This document shows, one piece after another, positions 8,269-30,441 of a stretch of DNA of 64,000 bases (within the stretch, counting starts at the first letter, position 1; the number at the start of each line of letters is the position of its first letter). The DNA comes from an uncultured archaeon. Its GTDB lineage: Archaea > Aenigmatarchaeota > Aenigmatarchaeia > CG10238-14 > SCSR01. Below the pieces are notes generated by a model. That model was not told the origin of the DNA. It did not search any database and saw nothing but the letters and a program-made list of their open reading frames with translations. The translations under genes were made by a program, and so were the position numbers. The stretch is from positions 40,768-104,767 of the forward strand of contig CAZEGD010000002.1 of the NCBI GenBank assembly GCA_964512235.1, in the 5' to 3' direction.

Positions 8269-8934
8269 ATGGTAGGGTCATTCTCTATATATAGAAAGTA
8301 TAAATATATGGAAAAGAATAGAATAATTAGAAAATATGTAAACTCTCACAAATGCGCCAGTGATTGGATGAAGTTAAGAGATGGGATTGAGCTTGCTGAA
8401 AGGTACGGGGCATCAGAAAAAAGGATTGAATTTGTAAGTAATTTATTCACACAGGCTGATATTAGGTACGAATATTTTTCTGAGAGTGCTATAGTTGCCG
8501 GTTTTATAAATAATAATGCCATAGTTGTGAAGGAAGAGATTGCACCTGACTTGGAAAGTATTAAACTTGATAAAAGTGAGTTGAAATTTGTCAGACAACC
8601 ACAAAAAGACGATAAAATCGCATCAATTAGGTTACTTAAAACTCTAGGATTTGAATTCGCTGGCACAGAAATAAGATACAATGGTGGAACAGTAGATGTT
8701 TTGGGTTGTGGTAAAGGCAAAATTATTGCTGTAGAGTGCGGTCCTTGTAGAATTAACAAGGCTGTAGACTATTTAGAGAAGGAAAATACTGAATTGTGGC
8801 TGATTCCTGTTGACTTCTGGCAGAATAAGAAGTTTTTCATAGTTTCACGTGGTCCAAACTGGAAGGATTTTCATGATTTTCACAAAAAATACCAAATTAA
8901 AGTGCTAAAAACTGGAAAGGTGGTGGGAATATGA
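8269..8934 (+). CDS. Hypothetical protein, possibly restriction-endonuclease-like (PD-(D/E)xK) fold; true start may be internal (ATG 8308 or 8367)
   Basis: TVDVLGCGKGKIIAVECG resembles a D...E.K nuclease core; repeat copy C lies inside the 5' end. Confidence 0.35.
   Translation: MVGSFSIYRKYKYMEKNRIIRKYVNSHKCASDWMKLRDGIELAERYGASEKRIEFVSNLFTQADIRYEYFSESAIVAGFINNNAIVVKEEIAPDLESIKLDKSELKFVRQPQKDDKIASIRLLKTLGFEFAGTEIRYNGGTVDVLGCGKGKIIAVECGPCRINKAVDYLEKENTELWLIPVDFWQNKKFFIVSRGPNWKDFHDFHKKYQIKVLKTGKVVGI
8333..8364 (+). repeat. Dispersed repeat copy C (TGTAAACTCTCACaaaTGCGCCAGTGATTGG)
   Basis: See copy A. Confidence 0.5.
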
Positions 8935-9278
8935 AAACGACATTGCACTTACTGGTGGGTAATCATCCAAAGACGGGTAGACTGAAACAAAGAATAACCA
9001 AAATCATCAGGATTTTGAAAGAGAATAAGGGTAAAATCGAGGCAAGCGAGTTGGAAAAGAAGTTAGGGATATCACGAACAGACGATCCAAGTCTCTTCTA
9101 CAAGCCGTTAAAGTCCATGAGGGACTGGGATTTGGTACAGTCGCACCGTACAGTGGAGTTTGATAGCAAAGGTAAGAAGCATTTTAAGACTACATACGAG
9201 CTAACACCAAGCTTCTTTTACCGCTACATAGAAAAAACGCTGTTGGAAAAGGTCAGAACGGAGTTAGAAATGATCTAA
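8931..9278 (+). CDS. Winged-helix DNA-binding protein
   Basis: RILKENKGKIEASELEKKLGISRT ... wing; start overlaps the previous gene by 4 nt. Confidence 0.5.
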   Translation: MKTTLHLLVGNHPKTGRLKQRITKIIRILKENKGKIEASELEKKLGISRTDDPSLFYKPLKSMRDWDLVQSHRTVEFDSKGKKHFKTTYELTPSFFYRYIEKTLLEKVRTELEMI

Positions 9279-9414
9279 TACATCTTACGAAAAGATGAAG
9301 TCCTCTACATGCGTTTTCAGCCATACAAACTATAAAAGGAGTGTAAACTTAAGTTTCTTCTGTATACAAGTTCTTCACTCTCACATCTAGTCAGGATTCG
9401 TACCAATCATTTAA

Positions 9415-9708
9415 TCAAGGAGAACTGACGAGTTGTGGAGTTTTCTCAAGTTTTTTCTTGTAGTTTTCCACACGTTTCTTTAACTCTGGGTCCTTTTCAA
9501 TCAATATGTTATAAAGGATTACAGCATCTTCTGAAGTCTTGAAAAGTTGGCCTTCGACTTCATTTTTAACATTTAGATAAAGATCCACTGCCTCGTCAAA
9601 TGGCAATACCGCGACCAGTTCTGGAGCGCCAGGGTTCTTCTTTCTGGCATACACATGCAACTTATCGCCAACGAACTTAGTCCAAACATCTAGGTTTGGG
9701 TTCTCCAT
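9415..9708 (-). CDS. Hypothetical protein (97 aa)
   Basis: ORF only; repeat copy E (9342..9395) lies just 3' of it. Confidence 0.4.
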   Translation of the reverse strand: MENPNLDVWTKFVGDKLHVYARKKNPGAPELVAVLPFDEAVDLYLNVKNEVEGQLFKTSEDAVILYNILIEKDPELKKRVENYKKKLEKTPQLVSSP

Positions 9709-9768
9709 AAAAACTTCTGCTGATTATGTTAATTTAAGCATTGTAGTGTTGCTTAACCAGTATCGGGT

Positions 9769-10065
9769 TTAGAGATTTTCTCTATGGAGCGATTCTCTGA
9801 CTTTTTCCAAATTTTTTTCAGCGTCTTCGTATGGATTTCTTTTCATAATCTTTACAGCTTCTTTCCCTTTCTGAGTTATGTGCAAATCGCCGTCTGTACC
9901 TATCTCAACATAAGGACCTAAAAGAAGTTCATCTAAAGCCTTTTTCACCCTAGTAGGATTATTCGGAAATTCGTTGTATATCTTATCTCTTGGCATAGAT
10001 TCTTTCTCACATATTAAACGTAGGATATATCCGATGGGGCTATTTGTCATTTTTCCACCAAACAA
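9769..10065 (-). CDS. Winged-helix transcription regulator-like protein
   Basis: PIGYILRLICEKESMPRDKIYNEF...LGPYVEI..DGDLHITQKG pattern. Confidence 0.45.
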   Translation of the reverse strand: MFGGKMTNSPIGYILRLICEKESMPRDKIYNEFPNNPTRVKKALDELLLGPYVEIGTDGDLHITQKGKEAVKIMKRNPYEDAEKNLEKVRESLHRENL

Positions 10066-10115
10066 ATTATAAAAGCGAGAGATTTAAATCTCACCCTACA
10101 TATACTTCAGAACTC

Positions 10116-10607
10116 TCACTTTTCCATCAGAAGCCCGTCTACATAGTCTATTTGGTCTTCCGGTTTTTCGTGTGATCTGACTAATTCTTCATAAATTTGT
10201 CTGACCCGATGCACATTGTCGCTGTCTATCCAGTATATACGTCCTGCGCGCTCTTTTTCAACTTCTCCGTATCCAGAAGTGATAATACCCCGATCTCCTA
10301 AAACATCTAATGATGACGATATTTCATTTCTTTCAATTAAACCCTCGAAATAGTCTACAAGTCTTGTAAATGTAGCGGGTATTTTAGTCATGTTGTATTT
10401 GTAAATCTGTACGGCTATCTTCAGATAATTATCTAGACTTTCCATAGCATTTGGGTCTGCTTTTTTGAATTCTTTGTTCTGATTCTTTAATGGGAGTGGA
10501 ACTTCAGGTATGTCTGACCCAATTAAGAAAAGTTCTTTTGGTTTCGGAAGCAAAATATCACCTAGAATAAATATAGAGTTTAAACTTTTATATTCGGTAT
10601 ACGCCAC
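10116..10607 (-). CDS. Hypothetical protein (163 aa)
   Basis: ORF; its stop codon is embedded in repeat copy F (10111..10130). Confidence 0.45.
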   Translation of the reverse strand: MAYTEYKSLNSIFILGDILLPKPKELFLIGSDIPEVPLPLKNQNKEFKKADPNAMESLDNYLKIAVQIYKYNMTKIPATFTRLVDYFEGLIERNEISSSLDVLGDRGIITSGYGEVEKERAGRIYWIDSDNVHRVRQIYEELVRSHEKPEDQIDYVDGLLMEK

Positions 10608-10623
10608 ATTGGCTTATTCTAGT

Positions 10624-10920
10624 CTATCCTGCATACACTTCTTTACTCTCACTCTTCACTTCTTTTGGCAGGAAGAAAAGGCCACCATGCAATAGAATTG
10701 CATAAAGGATTATCCTCATGAAGTCTGGAGATTCCATCTTTTTTATCTTTTTTAGGTAGGTTGATACTGTATTCCTGGATATGCCAAGCATTTCCGCTAT
10801 TTCTAGGTTGTTGTAGCCTCTTGCGTTTAATATTATTATCTCTTTTAGCATTATTGGTTTGAAGCCGTATCTCTTTGCTAGTGTGTTGAATAGCTGGTTT
10901 AGGTATCTTTCTATCTTCAT
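10624..10920 (-). CDS. HTH_10 (bacterio-opsin-activator-type) helix-turn-helix protein with a C-terminal TM segment
   Basis: GYNNLEIAEMLGISRNTVSTYLKKI HTH; hydrophobic segment IILYAILLHGGLFFL. Confidence 0.5.
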   Translation of the reverse strand: MKIERYLNQLFNTLAKRYGFKPIMLKEIIILNARGYNNLEIAEMLGISRNTVSTYLKKIKKMESPDFMRIILYAILLHGGLFFLPKEVKSESKEVYAG

Positions 10921-10964
10921 GTTAAATATTGTGCATTTTGCATATATTTAAACTATTTACATAA

Positions 10965-11177
10965 TTAAAAAATAAATACATGAAGGAAAAGAAAAATAAA
11001 GATCAGTCCTATCAAAATAAGTTCAATCAATACTAGTTTCGTTAATTCTTGTATTTCCATAGTAATCTGGGGAATACCAAAAATTGCTCCGATGATTAAG
11101 AAAAATACAGTTAAGGCTCCGAAGAAAATCGCAATTTTCTGTTCTGTAGTATATTTCTCTTTTTTATTAATTTTCAT
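10965..11177 (-). CDS. Small membrane protein (70 aa)
   Basis: Two hydrophobic helices; start overlaps the upstream gene. Confidence 0.4.
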   Translation of the reverse strand: MKINKKEKYTTEQKIAIFFGALTVFFLIIGAIFGIPQITMEIQELTKLVLIELILIGLIFIFLFLHVFIF

Positions 11178-11380
11178 CGACTCAACCTCGATATTATGCC
11201 AATAATTATCGAAATTATCATCGCTACTATTACGAAGAAGAATAGTAATGAATAACCTGGTGCCAGTTCTGTTAATATTGGACCTAAAGCATAGGTAATA
11301 ATGATAATTATAAAAATTGTAAGTAGAGCTTCAAAAACAAATGAAATTATATTTTGTCCTTTATTCTTCATATTTACCAT
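11174..11380 (-). CDS. Small membrane protein (68 aa)
   Basis: Two hydrophobic helices; 4-nt overlap with the downstream gene. Confidence 0.4.
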   Translation of the reverse strand: MVNMKNKGQNIISFVFEALLTIFIIIIITYALGPILTELAPGYSLLFFFVIVAMIISIIIGIISRLSR

Positions 11381-11464: not shown

Positions 11465-12433
11465 TTAACTAGAAAATGTTACATCAAAAACTTTCACTTC
11501 TATTAGAGGATTTGCAGCTGCAGCATATTCAAGATAAGTATCTTTCTTACCAACAACAATTATACCTCTAACTCCTTTACCCTCTTTCTCGGCCATATGT
11601 TTTTTTATCCAACCCATATATCTCGATATCTGGTCTATTATTGAAGAACCAGCTTTTGATTTTTTCAATTCAACAACAACATAATCTGCATTACTACATA
11701 ATAAATCGAGTCTTCCAACATCGGTAACTTTCTGCCTAGCGACTACTTTAAGATGTGGGTCTAACTTATGGATGTTTTGCTCTATGATGGTCTCTAAATT
11801 CCTTTCAAGGATTTCTGTGTAGCCTATCTGCCTACTAACTTTTTCTTTTATTATTTCTTTTTTATCGTCTTCTTTGATATCCGACTTTATCTCAACCCAC
11901 CTTCCCTCTTCGAGGTAATTCAAGAATTCGTCTATCGACCCAAATTTTTCTACCAAAGGCGTTAATCTATCTCCGCTTATTTGCATAAAGCCTTGTGGAG
12001 TATAGTTAGGTGCATAACCTACAACTTTATTGAAATCTGAAACAGGAACCGATAGTTCTCTTAGATTATCAAGAAGGTACATATATTCCCAAGTTTGTCC
12101 AGAGGAGTCCGTACTCCATAAAAATTTAGCTAATTCAAGATTATGTATTTTGTGTACGACGGTAGCAATATATTCGTAATTCCCCTTTCTATAAATCAGA
12201 ATTTTATCATTGACTTCTAGGTTGCGCCAATTTCGTATGTTTCCACTTCCAGGTGTGGCTCCCCATGCCCTTATTTTTCTATCGCGGAAATAATCTTCCA
12301 CATCTTTCAAATCATTCTCTGATAGAAATTGTTTTATTTTATTATCTAAAGTGAATCCTTCTTCTATTGTATCAATATAATGTCTGTAAGCTTCGTCTCT
12401 ACTTGCTGTAAAAACGAATAATTTGGCGGTCAT
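11465..12433 (-). CDS. Nuclease with a NucS/EndoMS-type C-terminal RecB-like PD-(D/E)xK domain fused to a ~200-aa N-terminal PUA/EVE-like beta-barrel region
   Basis: C-terminal GRLDLLCSNADYVVVELKKSKAGSSIIDQISRYMGWIKKHM...GVRGIIVVG closely parallels the NucS C-terminal domain (IDLL..D..VVIELKRG.A...VGQLLRY.GWV...VRGILVA); the N-terminus is not NucS-like. Confidence 0.6.
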   Translation of the reverse strand: MTAKLFVFTASRDEAYRHYIDTIEEGFTLDNKIKQFLSENDLKDVEDYFRDRKIRAWGATPGSGNIRNWRNLEVNDKILIYRKGNYEYIATVVHKIHNLELAKFLWSTDSSGQTWEYMYLLDNLRELSVPVSDFNKVVGYAPNYTPQGFMQISGDRLTPLVEKFGSIDEFLNYLEEGRWVEIKSDIKEDDKKEIIKEKVSRQIGYTEILERNLETIIEQNIHKLDPHLKVVARQKVTDVGRLDLLCSNADYVVVELKKSKAGSSIIDQISRYMGWIKKHMAEKEGKGVRGIIVVGKKDTYLEYAAAANPLIEVKVFDVTFSS

Positions 12434-12458
12434 AGTGTACTACTAGTTAATTGAACTC

Positions 12459-12492
12459 TCAATTTTATATTATATTCCTTTTTCTAGAGCAC
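12459..12492 (-). promoter_or_regulatory. Promoter module copy 1 (TGCTCTAGAAAAAGGAATATAA + TATA box), ~35 nt upstream of the 11465..12433 start
   Basis: Minus-strand reading tgctctagaaaaaggaatataatataaaatt; near-identical to the copy at 14623..14652. Confidence 0.55.
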
Positions 12493-12507
12493 ACTTCCGG
12501 CGAGAAT

Positions 12508-13920
12508 CTAAACTCTATAACCTCTTCCTTCTTTTACCATCTTCGTCTTCGGTGACAATCTCCTAAACATGCCCGGATGCTCAGTATGCACAGGAAATAG
12601 CATCTTCGGCTTGATCCTCTCTATCAATTCTTTCAAATCCGTACCTGACATGTGCCCGCTACAGTGGCACTGCACCTGACGCAGATCAAAATGCTCCATC
12701 CAGTTCTTCATCCTCCCAGCAGACATCTCCATCTCCTCGTTGAACGGCTCGGAAAGAGAGTGTATATACAGGCTATCTTTCGGCTTCAAATCCACGAGCA
12801 TATTGAAGTACCAGAAATTCAGCACGGTCATGTAATCATTCGGCTTCTTCTGCATGTCTTCTGCTGTGATAATGTTCGGATAATCCATCCTTTCCCTTAT
12901 GTACTTGTCCGAATAGTCCTTGTCATCATAAGTGCCTGTCATCCGCTTCGGCTTAAGCAGATAGATACCTTTACCAGTACTATCTGGCACATTCAGCGTC
13001 TTATCCATATGATAGCGCTCCAGAAAGCACGCGTGCTTGAAGCTGATCACAAGCTTCTTCTCTACCTCTTGTGAAATGCGATAGAAAGTGCGGAATCGGT
13101 CCACATCCTTGAAATTGAAGTCTACTATGGACAGTCCCCTGTTCTTCAGTATCTCCCTCTTCGAGTCAGCATACACCTTCGCCTCTGATTCATCGGTCTT
13201 TTTGATGTCAATTCTGGTGCCTTCAGTTATCATCGCTATCGGTTTCACTTCCTCCGCTCTCTTCATAAAGTCCATAGTCATCTCCGAATGAGCACCATGC
13301 ATCCGCATATCTCCAGTATAAACGACTGGACCTTTGCTTGTATGTATGATGAAACCGTACGCGCCAGGGACGCTGTGATCCACATGAATGGGTTCTATCT
13401 CCAATGACCCAATCTTGAACTTCTTGCCTGTCCTAAATGTATGAAAGGTGCGCTCTTCCGGAGGCTTCCTGTAGTCCGTGCGAAATAAAGGCCGCTTCTT
13501 GAAGTTCAGCACTTCATTCTCTATGCCCCTCTGGCTCTGCTCTTCCACTGCCTGCAATATGCGATGGCATGTCTCTCCGCAATATATCGGAATGTCCTTG
13601 TGCAAAAACGAAATATAGTTTGCATGGTCTGCATGCGCATGCGAGAGAACGACTCCGTCTATCTCCGGATCTTTCGGCTTACGTCCATAATGTTTGAGCA
13701 AATCATCGCGGTAGACACCTTCTATGTCTGGTATCAGTCCCATTGCAAGGAAGTCGCCTATGCCGTTTGCTGTTCTTGGCTTCAGGAACTCTTCGAAGAA
13801 TTGTGCACGCTTGCCAAAGCTCATTCCGAAATCTAAAAATATTTTGGTACCTTTATCTTCCAACAGTATCTTGTTACCGCCAATTTCCTTCACTCCGCCA
13901 TAGAAAGTTAGTTTGACCAT
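12508..13920 (-). CDS. rnj: Archaeal RNase J-like beta-CASP ribonuclease (metallo-beta-lactamase fold)
   Basis: HAHADH motif plus downstream D/H beta-lactamase motifs and a beta-CASP C-terminus; start chosen at MVKLTFYGG, while the ORF-track start is 13959. Confidence 0.8.
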   Translation of the reverse strand: MVKLTFYGGVKEIGGNKILLEDKGTKIFLDFGMSFGKRAQFFEEFLKPRTANGIGDFLAMGLIPDIEGVYRDDLLKHYGRKPKDPEIDGVVLSHAHADHANYISFLHKDIPIYCGETCHRILQAVEEQSQRGIENEVLNFKKRPLFRTDYRKPPEERTFHTFRTGKKFKIGSLEIEPIHVDHSVPGAYGFIIHTSKGPVVYTGDMRMHGAHSEMTMDFMKRAEEVKPIAMITEGTRIDIKKTDESEAKVYADSKREILKNRGLSIVDFNFKDVDRFRTFYRISQEVEKKLVISFKHACFLERYHMDKTLNVPDSTGKGIYLLKPKRMTGTYDDKDYSDKYIRERMDYPNIITAEDMQKKPNDYMTVLNFWYFNMLVDLKPKDSLYIHSLSEPFNEEMEMSAGRMKNWMEHFDLRQVQCHCSGHMSGTDLKELIERIKPKMLFPVHTEHPGMFRRLSPKTKMVKEGRGYRV

Positions 13921-13965
13921 ATTCTCAATTGATAATTGGTATGAAACAGATAAAAGCAATATTTT

Positions 13966-29582: not shown

Positions 29583-29709
29583 GCGGGGGTCGCCTAGTCT
29601 GGTCAATGGCGCGAGGCTTAAGTTTGACTACTTAAGATCTGATAAAATATGATGCAATAAGAAACCTCGTGGCTTAGTGCCTTCGTGGGTTCAAATCCCA
29701 CTCCCCGCA
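29583..29709 (+). tRNA. tRNA-Leu (anticodon UAA) with a ~41-nt intron after position 37 (approx. 29623..29663)
   Basis: Acceptor stem GCGGGGG/TCCCCGC; long variable arm GGCttagtGCC; anticodon loop CTTAAG|intron|A; intron contains ACTTAAG complementary to the loop (bulge-helix-bulge context). Confidence 0.85.
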
Positions 29710-29778
29710 TCATTTTCTAGAGATGTGTTTTCACAAGATTCCAAAAAGCTTAAATACGTTTCATTCAATAGGTTGGGT

Positions 29779-30441
29779 ATGATTACTGAAAAAATAGAAG
29801 CGTTTGAACATAGATTAAATCTGTGGATTGGAAAAACAGTACCTTTCCAGGTACGTATCTCTTCAGAGAGACATGGTTTTAAAGAAGTAGTCTATGATTT
29901 ACATAAGTACTGCAAAAGGGAGGGAGTTGCTAAACCTCCATCTAATGATGTTTATGAAGTCTCTGCCGTCGTTACAATCGATGGTAAAAACAAAGAAGCA
30001 TTGTATATAGGTCCCGGGTCTTTAAAGCGTTTGAGAGAAGTCTACCAGAAGAGATACAGACTTGGAGAAGAATTGACTGAAGGTGTGATTTCTCATGAAG
30101 ATTCGCATGCAGAAACTCCTAAACTAGAGCCAAATTTGAAAGAGAGGGTAATAAGACGGTTTAAACCAGATTATGCTCAAGATATTGTGACTATGAGAAA
30201 GAATGCTGAGGAGGGATTGGCAAATCTGAGGATGTTAAATGATTATGACGGTGACCCAGTAGATATTTTGATTATGTACACATTGTCGCAGTTCGTTTTC
30301 TGGAAAGACGGCAGGAAATATAGTAACCCAGAACTGATTGAAGATGTTGTAGCCATGTCTTTTCCGTGGCTTAGAGATGACCTTCAGCGCGAAGTGCGCT
30401 CAAAGACGTATGACTACCTTAGAGAACTGAAATATGCGTGA
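29779..30441 (+). CDS. Hypothetical protein (220 aa); the ORF-track start at 29677 overlaps the tRNA, so the internal Met is used
   Basis: ORF only; no recognised domain. Confidence 0.5.
   Translation: MITEKIEAFEHRLNLWIGKTVPFQVRISSERHGFKEVVYDLHKYCKREGVAKPPSNDVYEVSAVVTIDGKNKEALYIGPGSLKRLREVYQKRYRLGEELTEGVISHEDSHAETPKLEPNLKERVIRRFKPDYAQDIVTMRKNAEEGLANLRMLNDYDGDPVDILIMYTLSQFVFWKDGRKYSNPELIEDVVAMSFPWLRDDLQREVRSKTYDYLRELKYA

What the first reader, a model, noticed from the sequence alone, without database searches (positions are those of the whole stretch)
11465..12433. NucS/EndoMS-type nuclease domain fused to an unrelated ~200-aa PUA/EVE-like N-terminal region
The C-terminal 120 aa reproduce the NucS RecB-like nuclease domain almost motif-for-motif (IDLL...VVIELK...GQLLRYMGWV...VRGILV). 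The N-terminal two-thirds do not resemble the NucS mismatch-binding domain. They look like a beta-barrel reader domain (the WGATPGSGNIRNWRNLEVNDKILIYRKGN region). Fusions of modified-base-reader domains to PD-(D/E)xK nucleases typify type IV restriction-like defence, so this may be a modification-dependent nuclease rather than a mismatch endonuclease.
Basis: partly seen in the sequence, partly recalled or inferred. Interest (0 to 1): 0.6.

Follow-up and report, generated by a model that had tools for sequence, protein, structure and literature searches.

The report
Modified-base reader fused to NucS-type nuclease
This archaeal gene joins a YTH-like pocket domain that reads chemically modified DNA bases to a NucS-type DNA-cutting domain, so it is most likely a stand-alone restriction enzyme against modified foreign DNA: an uncharacterised member of a well-known class, not a mismatch-repair enzyme.

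Summary
The ORF at 11465-12433 (minus strand, 322 aa) is real. Residues about 225-320 are a NucS_C-type PD-(D/E)xK nuclease (Pfam E 7e-11). D243, E255, K257, Q268 and Y272 are invariant in all 40 full-length relatives.

Residues 1-182 are not the NucS mismatch-binding domain. They model confidently (pLDDT 94) as a PUA-superfamily barrel. The best structural match is the YTH-like N-terminal domain of Thermococcus gammatolerans McrB (TM 0.64-0.68), which is reported to bind m6A DNA. A profile of the domain family also finds that protein by sequence (E 2.6e-8).

The same domain occurs in more than 1,500 protein clusters. There it is fused to McrB-type AAA+ modules, HNH, Mrr and NOV_C nucleases. 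It also occurs on plasmids and in a provirus.

The exact architecture is confined to a small family in DPANN archaea and CPR bacteria. It has no conserved neighbour and no nearby methyltransferase.

The best reading is a single-chain type IV modification-dependent endonuclease of unknown specificity, with m6A as the leading guess. This kind of fusion has already been noted computationally, so it is a new member of a known kind.

In passing: the wider reader family is usually preceded by a MazG-like NTP pyrophosphatase gene.

The parts
11465..12433 (-). Complete ORF, 322 aa plus stop: reader-nuclease fusion protein
   Evidence: ORF list. An identical protein is in the public collection (P0001). 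Relatives start at the same Met and have the same length.
11888..12433 (-). Residues 1-182: YTH-like PUA-superfamily reader domain, of the TgMcrB-N type
   Evidence: AF2 pLDDT 94.1. Foldseek best hits 6p0f/6p0g, E 3e-8, TM 0.64-0.68, followed by ASCH, YTH and EVE structures. A family profile hits 6p0f by sequence at E 2.6e-8. phrog_14240 E 2.2e-23. 1,524 representative clusters at E<=1e-3.
12077..12265 (-). Span holding the invariant aromatic positions W57, W69, Y81, W106, W115 and Y119 (H18 lies outside the span); candidate cage for a flipped base
   Evidence: These positions are invariant in 46/46 aligned sequences, including relatives fused to other effectors. W57, W69, W106 and W115 are also nearly invariant across 104 diverse family members. 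The cage role is inferred from YTH and TgMcrB-N homology; it was not measured on coordinates.
11762..11887 (-). Residues 183-224: helical linker with a flexible hinge
   Evidence: AF2 secondary structure shows helices 188-203 and 207-224; pLDDT is below 50 at residues 204-208.
11468..11761 (-). Residues 225-322: NucS_C-type (RecB-like) PD-(D/E)xK nuclease domain
   Evidence: Pfam NucS_C E 6.8e-11. PDB NucS/EndoMS matched by profile and by structure. PADLOC candidate-defence families PDC-S02 (E 1.7e-16) and PDC-S11 match this domain only.
11618..11707 (-). Catalytic motif codons: D243 (11705-11707), E255-x-K257 (11663-11671), Q268 (11630-11632), Y272 (11618-11620)
   Evidence: All five residues are invariant in 40/40 full-length family members. 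Codons were read directly from the sequence.
12434..12510 (-). 77-nt upstream region that travels with the gene; it holds an A/T-rich TATA-like stretch (about 12463-12476), a putative own archaeal promoter
   Evidence: Nucleotide homology to the Aenigmatarchaeota locus L002 (83%) covers exactly window 12510-11465 and nothing else in 17 kb. Sequence read. The promoter role is inferred only.

Best explanation
The gene encodes a stand-alone (single-gene) type IV, modification-dependent DNA endonuclease.

Proposed mechanism:
1. The N-terminal YTH-like PUA barrel (residues 1-182) binds DNA and flips a modified base into a tryptophan-rich pocket (W57, W69, Y81, W106, W115, Y119, H18).
3. The nuclease, presumably acting as a dimer with Mg2+, cuts the DNA near the recognised base.
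4. The host avoids self-cleavage simply by not carrying that modification, so no cognate methyltransferase is needed.

Which base is read is not known. N6-methyladenine is the leading guess (about 0.4), because that is what the only characterised homologue of the reader domain binds.

Inferred: base flipping, the identity of the ligand, dimerisation, the cleavage geometry and the anti-virus role.
For: - Nuclease domain: Pfam NucS_C E 6.8e-11; NucS/EndoMS structures matched by profile and by fold.
- The catalytic residues D, ExK and QxxxY are invariant in 40/40 family members.
- Reader domain: pLDDT 94 model. The best PDB match is TgMcrB-N 6p0f/6p0g, then ASCH, YTH and EVE structures. Sequence-profile hit to 6p0f at E 2.6e-8.
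- TgMcrB-N is reported to bind N6mA-containing double- or single-stranded DNA better than unmodified or 5mC DNA, and hardly binds RNA (PMC7544203, citing Hosford 2020).
- The same reader is fused elsewhere to other effectors. Among 104 representatives: AAA_5/McrB-type 18, HNH_2 13, HNH 11, an extra EVE 5, NOV_C 4, Mrr_cat 1.
- A reader-AAA gene followed by a PD-(D/E)XK gene sits in an Archaeoglobus provirus.
- Mobility and islands: an 87%-identical copy in an Aenigmatarchaeota MAG shares only the gene plus 77 nt upstream. There it sits beside a Cas4-like nuclease, Vsr, a C5-methylase and an HATPase_c_3 protein. A 60% relative in a loosely syntenic archaeal locus sits between a PIN gene and a GmrSD_N type IV enzyme.
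- The gene's GC content is 0.347, against 0.395 for the window and 0.454 for the upstream gene.
- No conserved neighbour or methyltransferase appears in seven contexts.
- Precedents: PUA-reader plus nuclease enzymes are established modification-dependent endonucleases (PMC6765204, PMC7897488). A NucS-like PD-DExK domain fused to a different sensor restricts modified phages (PMC12191111).
Against: - No activity data exist for any member of this family.
Ligand specificity therefore cannot be transferred with confidence.
- Several contexts (Parcubacteria L004, L065-L067) lie among housekeeping or anonymous genes rather than in obvious defence islands.
- In the window itself the neighbours are an MBL/beta-CASP-type hydrolase, small HTH proteins and small membrane proteins, not recognised defence genes.
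- Whether the host genome lacks the target modification could not be checked from a 64-kb window.
Confidence: 0.72

Rival explanations
1. It is a DNA-repair endonuclease, a functional analogue of NucS/EndoMS. The PUA-like domain would recognise a damaged base (alkylated or deaminated) or a mismatch instead of an epigenetic or viral modification, and the nuclease would start non-canonical excision repair in genome-reduced DPANN and CPR organisms.
For: The nuclease domain is of the NucS type. The exact architecture is found mainly in DPANN archaea and CPR bacteria with small genomes. Some copies sit among housekeeping genes such as DnaG and sigma-70 in L004. An Ogg glycosylase lies in the same window, although 9 kb away.
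Against: The NucS mismatch-binding and dimerisation domain is absent. Synteny is absent even at 87% identity, and the copies lie in variable or defence-type neighbourhoods. GC content is lower than that of the flanking genes.
Confidence: 0.1
2. It targets modified RNA (m6A-bearing rRNA, tRNA or mRNA, or viral RNA), as eukaryotic YTH domains do and as has been proposed for the YTH-like domains of CoCoNuT McrBC systems.
For: Eukaryotic YTH domains, which read m6A in RNA, are among the structural neighbours. YTH-like domains in CoCoNuT systems were predicted to sense methylated RNA (PMC10542128).
Against: The closest homologue, TgMcrB-N, shows little affinity for RNA (PMC7544203). The effector is a RecB/NucS-type DNA nuclease.
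Confidence: 0.05
3. It is one subunit of a multi-gene system together with its window neighbours: the MBL/RMMBL hydrolase directly upstream (12508-13959) or the two small membrane proteins downstream (10965-11380).
For: All these genes are on the same strand with short gaps: 74 nt upstream and 84 nt downstream. The upstream protein has an MBL fold plus an RNA-specificity RMMBL domain.
Against: None of these neighbours recurs next to any of seven homologues examined. GC content differs sharply between the gene (0.347) and the MBL gene (0.454). Homology with the closest relative ends 77 nt upstream of the start codon and at the stop codon.
Confidence: 0.05

Closest known systems
[quoted passage not shown]
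   Same: Same fold and same sequence family as residues 1-182 (Foldseek E 3e-8, TM 0.64-0.68; profile E 2.6e-8). Aromatic positions align: W57/W53, W69/Y61, Y81/Y74, W115/F121 and Y117/F123, window residue first. Both are N-terminal sensor modules of restriction-type proteins.
   Different: Identity is only about 14%. In Tg the domain is fused to an AAA+ GTPase that works with a separate McrC nuclease. Here it is fused directly to a nuclease, so no motor is involved. The pocket here is richer in Trp, so the ligand may differ.
NucS/EndoMS mismatch endonuclease (P. abyssi 2VLD, T. kodakarensis 5GKE)
   Same: The C-terminal RecB-like PD-(D/E)xK nuclease domain with the D...ExK...QxxxY motifs.
   Different: It lacks the NucS N-terminal mismatch-binding and dimerisation domain. 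It scores far below both NCBIfam NucS equivalog cutoffs. It is 322 aa, whereas the NCBIfam NucS models are 224-250 positions long. It is not a NucS orthologue.
PUA-superfamily reader-nuclease type IV enzymes (EVE-HNH VcaM4I/TspA15I, SRA-HNH ScoA3IV/TagI, SRA-PD-(D/E)xK MspJI)
   Same: The same design logic: an N-terminal base-flipping PUA-like sensor plus a C-terminal nuclease in one chain, with no cognate methylase. The EVE domain of VcaM4I is a structural neighbour (6yex). Literature: PMC6765204, PMC7897488.
   Different: The characterised enzymes read 5mC/5hmC, or 6mA in the case of ScoA3V. Nothing has been measured for this family.
END-Mag, a NucS-like PD-DExK nuclease fused to an inactive EndoIII sensor (END nucleases, PMC12191111)
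   Same: It uses a NucS-like nuclease as the effector of a modification-sensing defence protein, and it was shown to restrict phages with modified guanine.
   Different: The sensor domain is unrelated (HhH/EndoIII rather than PUA/YTH-like).
PADLOC candidate defence families PDC-S02 and PDC-S11
   Same: The C-terminal nuclease domain matches these profiles (E 1.7e-16 and 9e-10).
   Different: The matches cover only the nuclease part (residues about 209-321). The N-terminal parts of those profiles are not matched. The families are candidates with no mechanism attached.

Membership tests
NucS/EndoMS mismatch endonuclease | C-terminal RecB-like PD-(D/E)xK nuclease domain (NucS_C) with catalytic D, ExK and QxxxY | tested here: met
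   Pfam NucS_C 42.7 bits against cutoff 24. D243, E255, K257, Q268 and Y272 are invariant in 40/40 members. Structural match to 2vld/5gke.
NucS/EndoMS mismatch endonuclease | N-terminal NucS mismatch-binding and dimerisation domain | tested here: not met
   No Pfam or NCBIfam match in residues 1-200 at E<=1. Alignments to 2vld/5gke cover only 108-119 columns, the length of the nuclease domain alone, and profile matches to these chains lie at profile positions 213-301. No NucS chain is among the top 50 hits of the N-domain model.
NucS/EndoMS mismatch endonuclease | Full-length match to the NCBIfam NucS equivalog models | tested here: not met
   45.7 bits against cutoff 216 (NF003270) and 28.8 bits against cutoff 252 (NF002876).
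NucS/EndoMS mismatch endonuclease | C-terminal sliding-clamp (PCNA or beta-clamp) interaction motif | not tested
   The protein ends ...VKVFDVTFSS. No motif model was available, so no claim is made.
Type IV modification-dependent restriction endonuclease of the PUA-reader plus nuclease class | PUA-superfamily (SRA, EVE, YTH or ASCH-like) modified-base reader domain | tested here: met
   High-confidence model. Structural neighbours are TgMcrB-N, ASCH, YTH and EVE. Sequence-profile homology to TgMcrB-N.
Type IV modification-dependent restriction endonuclease of the PUA-reader plus nuclease class | Nuclease domain in the same chain with intact catalytic residues | tested here: met
Type IV modification-dependent restriction endonuclease of the PUA-reader plus nuclease class | No cognate protective methyltransferase; stand-alone gene | tested here: met
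   No methylase lies within several kb in the window (Pfam scan of neighbours) or across the window (crude motif scan), nor in L003-L005 and L065-L067. L002 has a Dcm-type methylase plus Vsr next door, but as part of a separate cassette. No neighbour is conserved.
Type IV modification-dependent restriction endonuclease of the PUA-reader plus nuclease class | Cleavage that depends on a modified base in the substrate | not testable with these tools
   This needs biochemistry or in vivo restriction assays.
YTH domain (Pfam PF04146, eukaryotic m6A readers) | Match to the YTH sequence model | tested here: not met
   No Pfam YTH, EVE or ASCH hit at E<=1. Eukaryotic YTH structures match only at Foldseek E about 1e-3 with TM 0.35-0.47 normalised to the query. 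'YTH-like' here means the TgMcrB-N branch.
YTH domain (Pfam PF04146, eukaryotic m6A readers) | Aromatic cage that holds the methylated base | tested here: inconclusive
   Invariant W57, W69, Y81, W106, W115 and Y119 align with aromatic residues of TgMcrB-N.
This protein has no AAA domain and no such gene adjacent.

The most novel reading that the evidence does not exclude
The four-tryptophan pocket may not read m6A or 5mC at all. It may read a base that viruses build into DNA at the nucleotide level, that is, a hypermodified or non-canonical base. That would point to a two-armed defence that both cleans the modified dNTP pool and cuts modified DNA. The window's NucS_C-fused, MazG-less form would then be a stripped-down variant in DPANN and CPR organisms. 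Neither the pairing nor the ligand turned up in the three term searches made of the held paper library.
Probability: 0.15. Interest if true: 0.65.

Novelty: new member of a known kind. Interest (0 to 1): 0.35.

Why it matters
[quoted passage not shown] If this family proves to be an m6A-dependent (or otherwise specific) nuclease independent of sequence context, it would widen that toolkit.

It would also give the first biochemical handle on a reader domain that is present in more than 1,500 protein clusters yet matched no model in the Pfam copy searched here.

Biologically, it shows that the NucS nuclease module has been recruited outside mismatch repair. It also shows that episymbiotic DPANN archaea and CPR bacteria share a compact one-gene restriction function, probably through horizontal transfer.

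For annotation, such proteins should not be called 'endonuclease NucS'.

Tried and rejected
- Divergent NucS N-domain: rejected. No sequence or structure match.
- Operon partner in the window (MBL hydrolase, small membrane proteins): rejected. None is conserved in seven homologous contexts.
- Integrated virus around the gene: not supported. PHROGs matched only a generic HTH protein among the neighbours, and no integrase was found. The low-GC stretch at 8.2-12.4 kb remains unexplained.
- A second, canonical NucS or other NucS_C gene in the window: none found by blastp of NucS_C proteins against all ORFs of at least 80 aa.
- DNA methyltransferase in the window: a crude motif scan found only one NPPY, and it lies in a DHH/DHHA1 phosphoesterase.
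- The word-indexed search with the N-domain alone gave little. The exhaustive representative search was needed.
- The Hosford 2020 paper on TgMcrB-N is not held, so its cage residues could not be quoted.
- The exact-sequence look-up of the window protein found only a 1-kb contig, and cluster look-ups gave no organism names.
- The BFVD search gave only separate-domain viral hits.

Full report
**The observation.** The coordinates 11465-12433 delimit a complete minus-strand ORF: ATG start, 322 aa, stop codon included. Its C-terminal third is a NucS_C-type nuclease.
- Pfam NucS_C scores 42.7 bits against a gathering cutoff of 24 (E 6.8e-11, residues 210-293).
- A profile of the family finds P. abyssi NucS (2vld, E 1.8e-6) and T. 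kodakarensis EndoMS (5gke, E 1.2e-3) among PDB sequences.
- The AF2 model of the whole protein (mean pLDDT 90.1) superposes on those structures over 108-119 columns.
- The motif residues are D243, E255-x-K257, Q268 and Y272. All five are invariant in the 40 full-length relatives aligned. That argues for an active enzyme under selection.

The N-terminal quotation is literal.

**What the N-terminal two-thirds are not.** No Pfam or NCBIfam model matches residues 1-200 at E<=1. The two NCBIfam NucS equivalogs match only through their C-terminal halves, at 45.7 and 28.8 bits against cutoffs of 216 and 252. Structural alignments to NucS/EndoMS cover only about the nuclease domain's length. No NucS chain appears among the top 50 neighbours of the N-domain model.

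**What the N-terminal domain is.** Residues 1-185, modelled with 46 relatives, give pLDDT 94.1 and pTM 0.88. The fold is a mixed barrel with flanking helices.
- The best PDB neighbours are the N-terminal domain of Thermococcus gammatolerans McrB, free and DNA-bound (6p0f and 6p0g; E 3e-8 and 2.5e-7; TM 0.63-0.68).
- After a gap come MJECL36, ASCH, many eukaryotic YTH domains, the EVE domain of the restriction enzyme VcaM4I, and THYN1 bound to 5mC DNA.
- The relationship to TgMcrB-N is not only structural. A profile of 104 diverse members of the domain family retrieves TgMcrB from PDB sequences at E 2.6e-8 for the isolated domain and 1.3e-9 for the full-length chain. Conserved aromatic positions align: W57/W53, W69/Y61, Y81/Y74, W115/F121 and Y117/F123, window residue first.

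According to PMC7544203 (which cites Hosford et al. 2020), this archaeal YTH-like domain binds N6mA-containing double- or single-stranded DNA better than unmodified or 5mC DNA, and has little affinity for RNA. In the present family H18, W57, W69, Y81, A102, W106, T114, W115 and Y119 are invariant in all 46 aligned sequences, whatever the effector. I take these as the candidate base-binding cage. Without model coordinates that is an inference.

**The company the reader domain keeps.** An exhaustive search of 1.84 billion representative proteins finds 1,524 clusters with this domain at E<=1e-3 and 714 at E<=1e-10, in proteins of 100 to more than 1,000 aa. Pfam families matched among 104 representatives of at least 213 aa (most 300 aa or longer):

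| Pfam family | Members (of 104) |
|---|---|
| AAA_5 (the McrB type) | 18 |
| HNH_2 | 13 |
| HNH | 11 |
| additional EVE domain | 5 |
| NOV_C | 4 |
| NucS_C | 1 |
| Mrr_cat | 1 |
| ParB_N | 1 |

Several STAND NTPase families were also matched (nSTAND3 in 3 members; NACHT and nSTAND6 in 1 each).

Other occurrences point the same way:
- One relative is labelled 5-methylcytosine-specific restriction protein B by its source (P0059).
- The domain occurs on 41 plasmid records of haloarchaea, Bacillus, Streptomyces and others, annotated there as restriction or HNH endonucleases.
- It matches phrog_14240 (E 2.2e-23).

This is the fusion repertoire expected of a type IV restriction sensor. [quoted passage not shown] A 2024 study lists YTH-NTPase and YTH-HNH fusions as still to be characterised (PMC11037411).

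**The exact architecture and its distribution.** Full-length relatives (reader plus NucS_C, 309-341 aa) number about 50 clusters at 48-87% identity. Their sources name Aenigmatarchaeota, uncultured archaea, Parcubacteria, Minisyncoccota/Minisyncoccia and Paceibacterota. Two archaeal relatives carry an extra C-terminal region of about 170 aa (P0009 and P0010). At 50% clustering the architecture collapses to two or three representatives.

**Genomic context.** The window is archaeal chromosome: aEF-1alpha, RNA polymerase subunit Rpb5/H, MetAP and Ogg.
- The gene's GC content is 0.347, against 0.395 for the window and 0.454 for the gene just upstream.
- The 87%-identical copy in an Aenigmatarchaeota MAG (L002) shares with the window only the gene and 77 nt upstream (83% nucleotide identity over 12510-11465). 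Nothing else matches in 17 kb. There it lies between a Cas4-like nuclease and a Vsr / C5-methylase / HATPase_c_3 cassette.
- A 60% relative (L003) lies in a loosely colinear region, with TspO on one side and homologues of window 5.8-6.8 kb on the other. There it sits between a PIN gene and a GmrSD_N type IV enzyme.
- Four other contexts (L004, L065-L067) show no recurring neighbour and no methyltransferase.
- In the window the neighbours are an MBL/RMMBL hydrolase, small HTH proteins and two small membrane proteins. None recurs elsewhere.
- No second NucS_C gene and no obvious DNA methylase is present in the 64 kb.

The unit of inheritance is thus one gene with its own upstream region. It moves between genomes and tends to land in variable or defence-type spots.

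**Mechanism proposed.**
2. The flexible helical linker (hinge at residues 204-208) positions the NucS-type nuclease.
3. The nuclease cuts nearby, probably as a dimer producing a double-strand break.
4. The host is spared because its DNA lacks the mark.

Steps 1-4 are inferred from homology with TgMcrB-N, other PUA-reader endonucleases (PMC6765204, PMC7897488) and NucS. The folds, the homologies and the conservation are shown. A NucS-like nuclease fused to a different sensor has been shown to restrict phages with modified bases (PMC12191111), so the effector is known to work in this role.

On the ligand, m6A is the best single guess, but identity to the Tg domain is only about 14%. The co-residence with a Dcm-type methylase in L002 hints, weakly, that 5mC in that context is not the target.

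**Rivals.**
- A repair enzyme that reads lesions is not excluded (0.1). It is disfavoured by the restriction-type fusion partners, the mobility and the absence of the NucS N-domain.
- An RNA target (0.05) is disfavoured by the DNA-type effector and by the Tg domain's poor RNA binding.
- A multi-gene system with the window neighbours (0.05) is disfavoured by the lack of any conserved neighbour.

**Comparison and novelty.** It works like the PUA-reader plus nuclease type IV enzymes, and it meets every computationally testable feature of that class. It is not a member of NucS/EndoMS, of McrBC or of the Pfam YTH family in the strict sense. The kind is known and this fusion type has been mentioned in the computational literature. 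No member has been characterised. Verdict: new member of a known kind, interest 0.35.

**Side observation.** Among 59 genome loci carrying the wider reader family (L006-L064), 42 have a MazG-like NTP pyrophosphohydrolase gene of about 110-125 aa. None of the seven NucS_C-subfamily loci with flanking sequence has one (L001, a 1-kb contig, holds only the gene), nor does the window. I found no mention of this pairing in the held literature.

Noticed in passing
Related loci L006-L064 (e.g. L017:7655-8005, L020:7645-7989, L036:7620-7991); absent from the window: 42 of 59 genome loci with the wider reader-domain family carry a MazG-like NTP pyrophosphohydrolase gene of about 110-125 aa (Pfam PF12643, E down to 1.5e-23). 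It is absent from the window and from all seven NucS_C-subfamily loci with flanking sequence. The term searches made of the held literature did not find it. It may be a two-gene defence cassette coupling dNTP-pool sanitation to cleavage of modified DNA.
   Followed up: partly
window 29583-29709 (+): Rfam finds a third tRNA (40 bits, 127 nt) that ARAGORN did not report. Its length suggests an intron-containing archaeal tRNA. It overlaps the start of the mechanical ORF 29677-30441.
   Followed up: no
window 8269-11380: A low-GC stretch (0.27-0.41 per gene, against 0.395 for the window) of small ORFs without family matches, apart from HTH domains (8931-9278; 10624-10920, GerE/sigma-70 region 4-like) and two small membrane proteins (10965-11177, 11174-11380). 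It may be a remnant of a mobile element adjacent to the target gene. No integrase or viral hallmark was found.
   Followed up: partly
L002:7179-12075: In the Aenigmatarchaeota relative the gene sits in a defence-type cluster: a Cas4-like PD-(D/E)XK nuclease, a Vsr very-short-patch endonuclease, a C5 cytosine methylase and an HATPase_c_3 protein.
   Followed up: partly
L003:6438-11512: In a loosely syntenic uncultured archaeon the homologue has an extra C-terminal region of about 170 aa and unknown fold (P0010, 493 aa; P0009 likewise). It lies between a PIN-domain gene and a GmrSD_N (DUF262) type IV restriction gene. This suggests that the TspO-to-Rpb5 interval is a variable defence spot in this lineage.
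   Followed up: no
window 12508-13959 (-): The gene directly upstream encodes a 483-aa metallo-beta-lactamase-fold protein with an RMMBL RNA-specificity domain (RNase J or aCPSF-like). It has a TTG start and a markedly higher GC content (0.454) than the target gene.
   Followed up: no
Proteins P0061, P0064, P0084, P0109, P0119 (not in the window): A group of proteins of 265-306 aa shares the linker and the NucS_C nuclease, and also a ...PQG[FY]... motif at the end of a different N-terminal domain (32% identity over residues 112-321). The linker-plus-NucS_C module seems to be combined with several alternative sensor domains.
   Followed up: partly
BFVD hit M1HWH6; provirus locus L069:3896-7014: Viral proteins also match parts of the full-length model. 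A 141-aa BFVD protein with no name in the tables at hand (M1HWH6) matches at Foldseek E 3.4e-8. An Archaeoglobus pleolipo-provirus carries a reader-AAA plus PD-(D/E)XK (McrBC-like) pair, i.e. a virus-borne type IV system.
   Followed up: no
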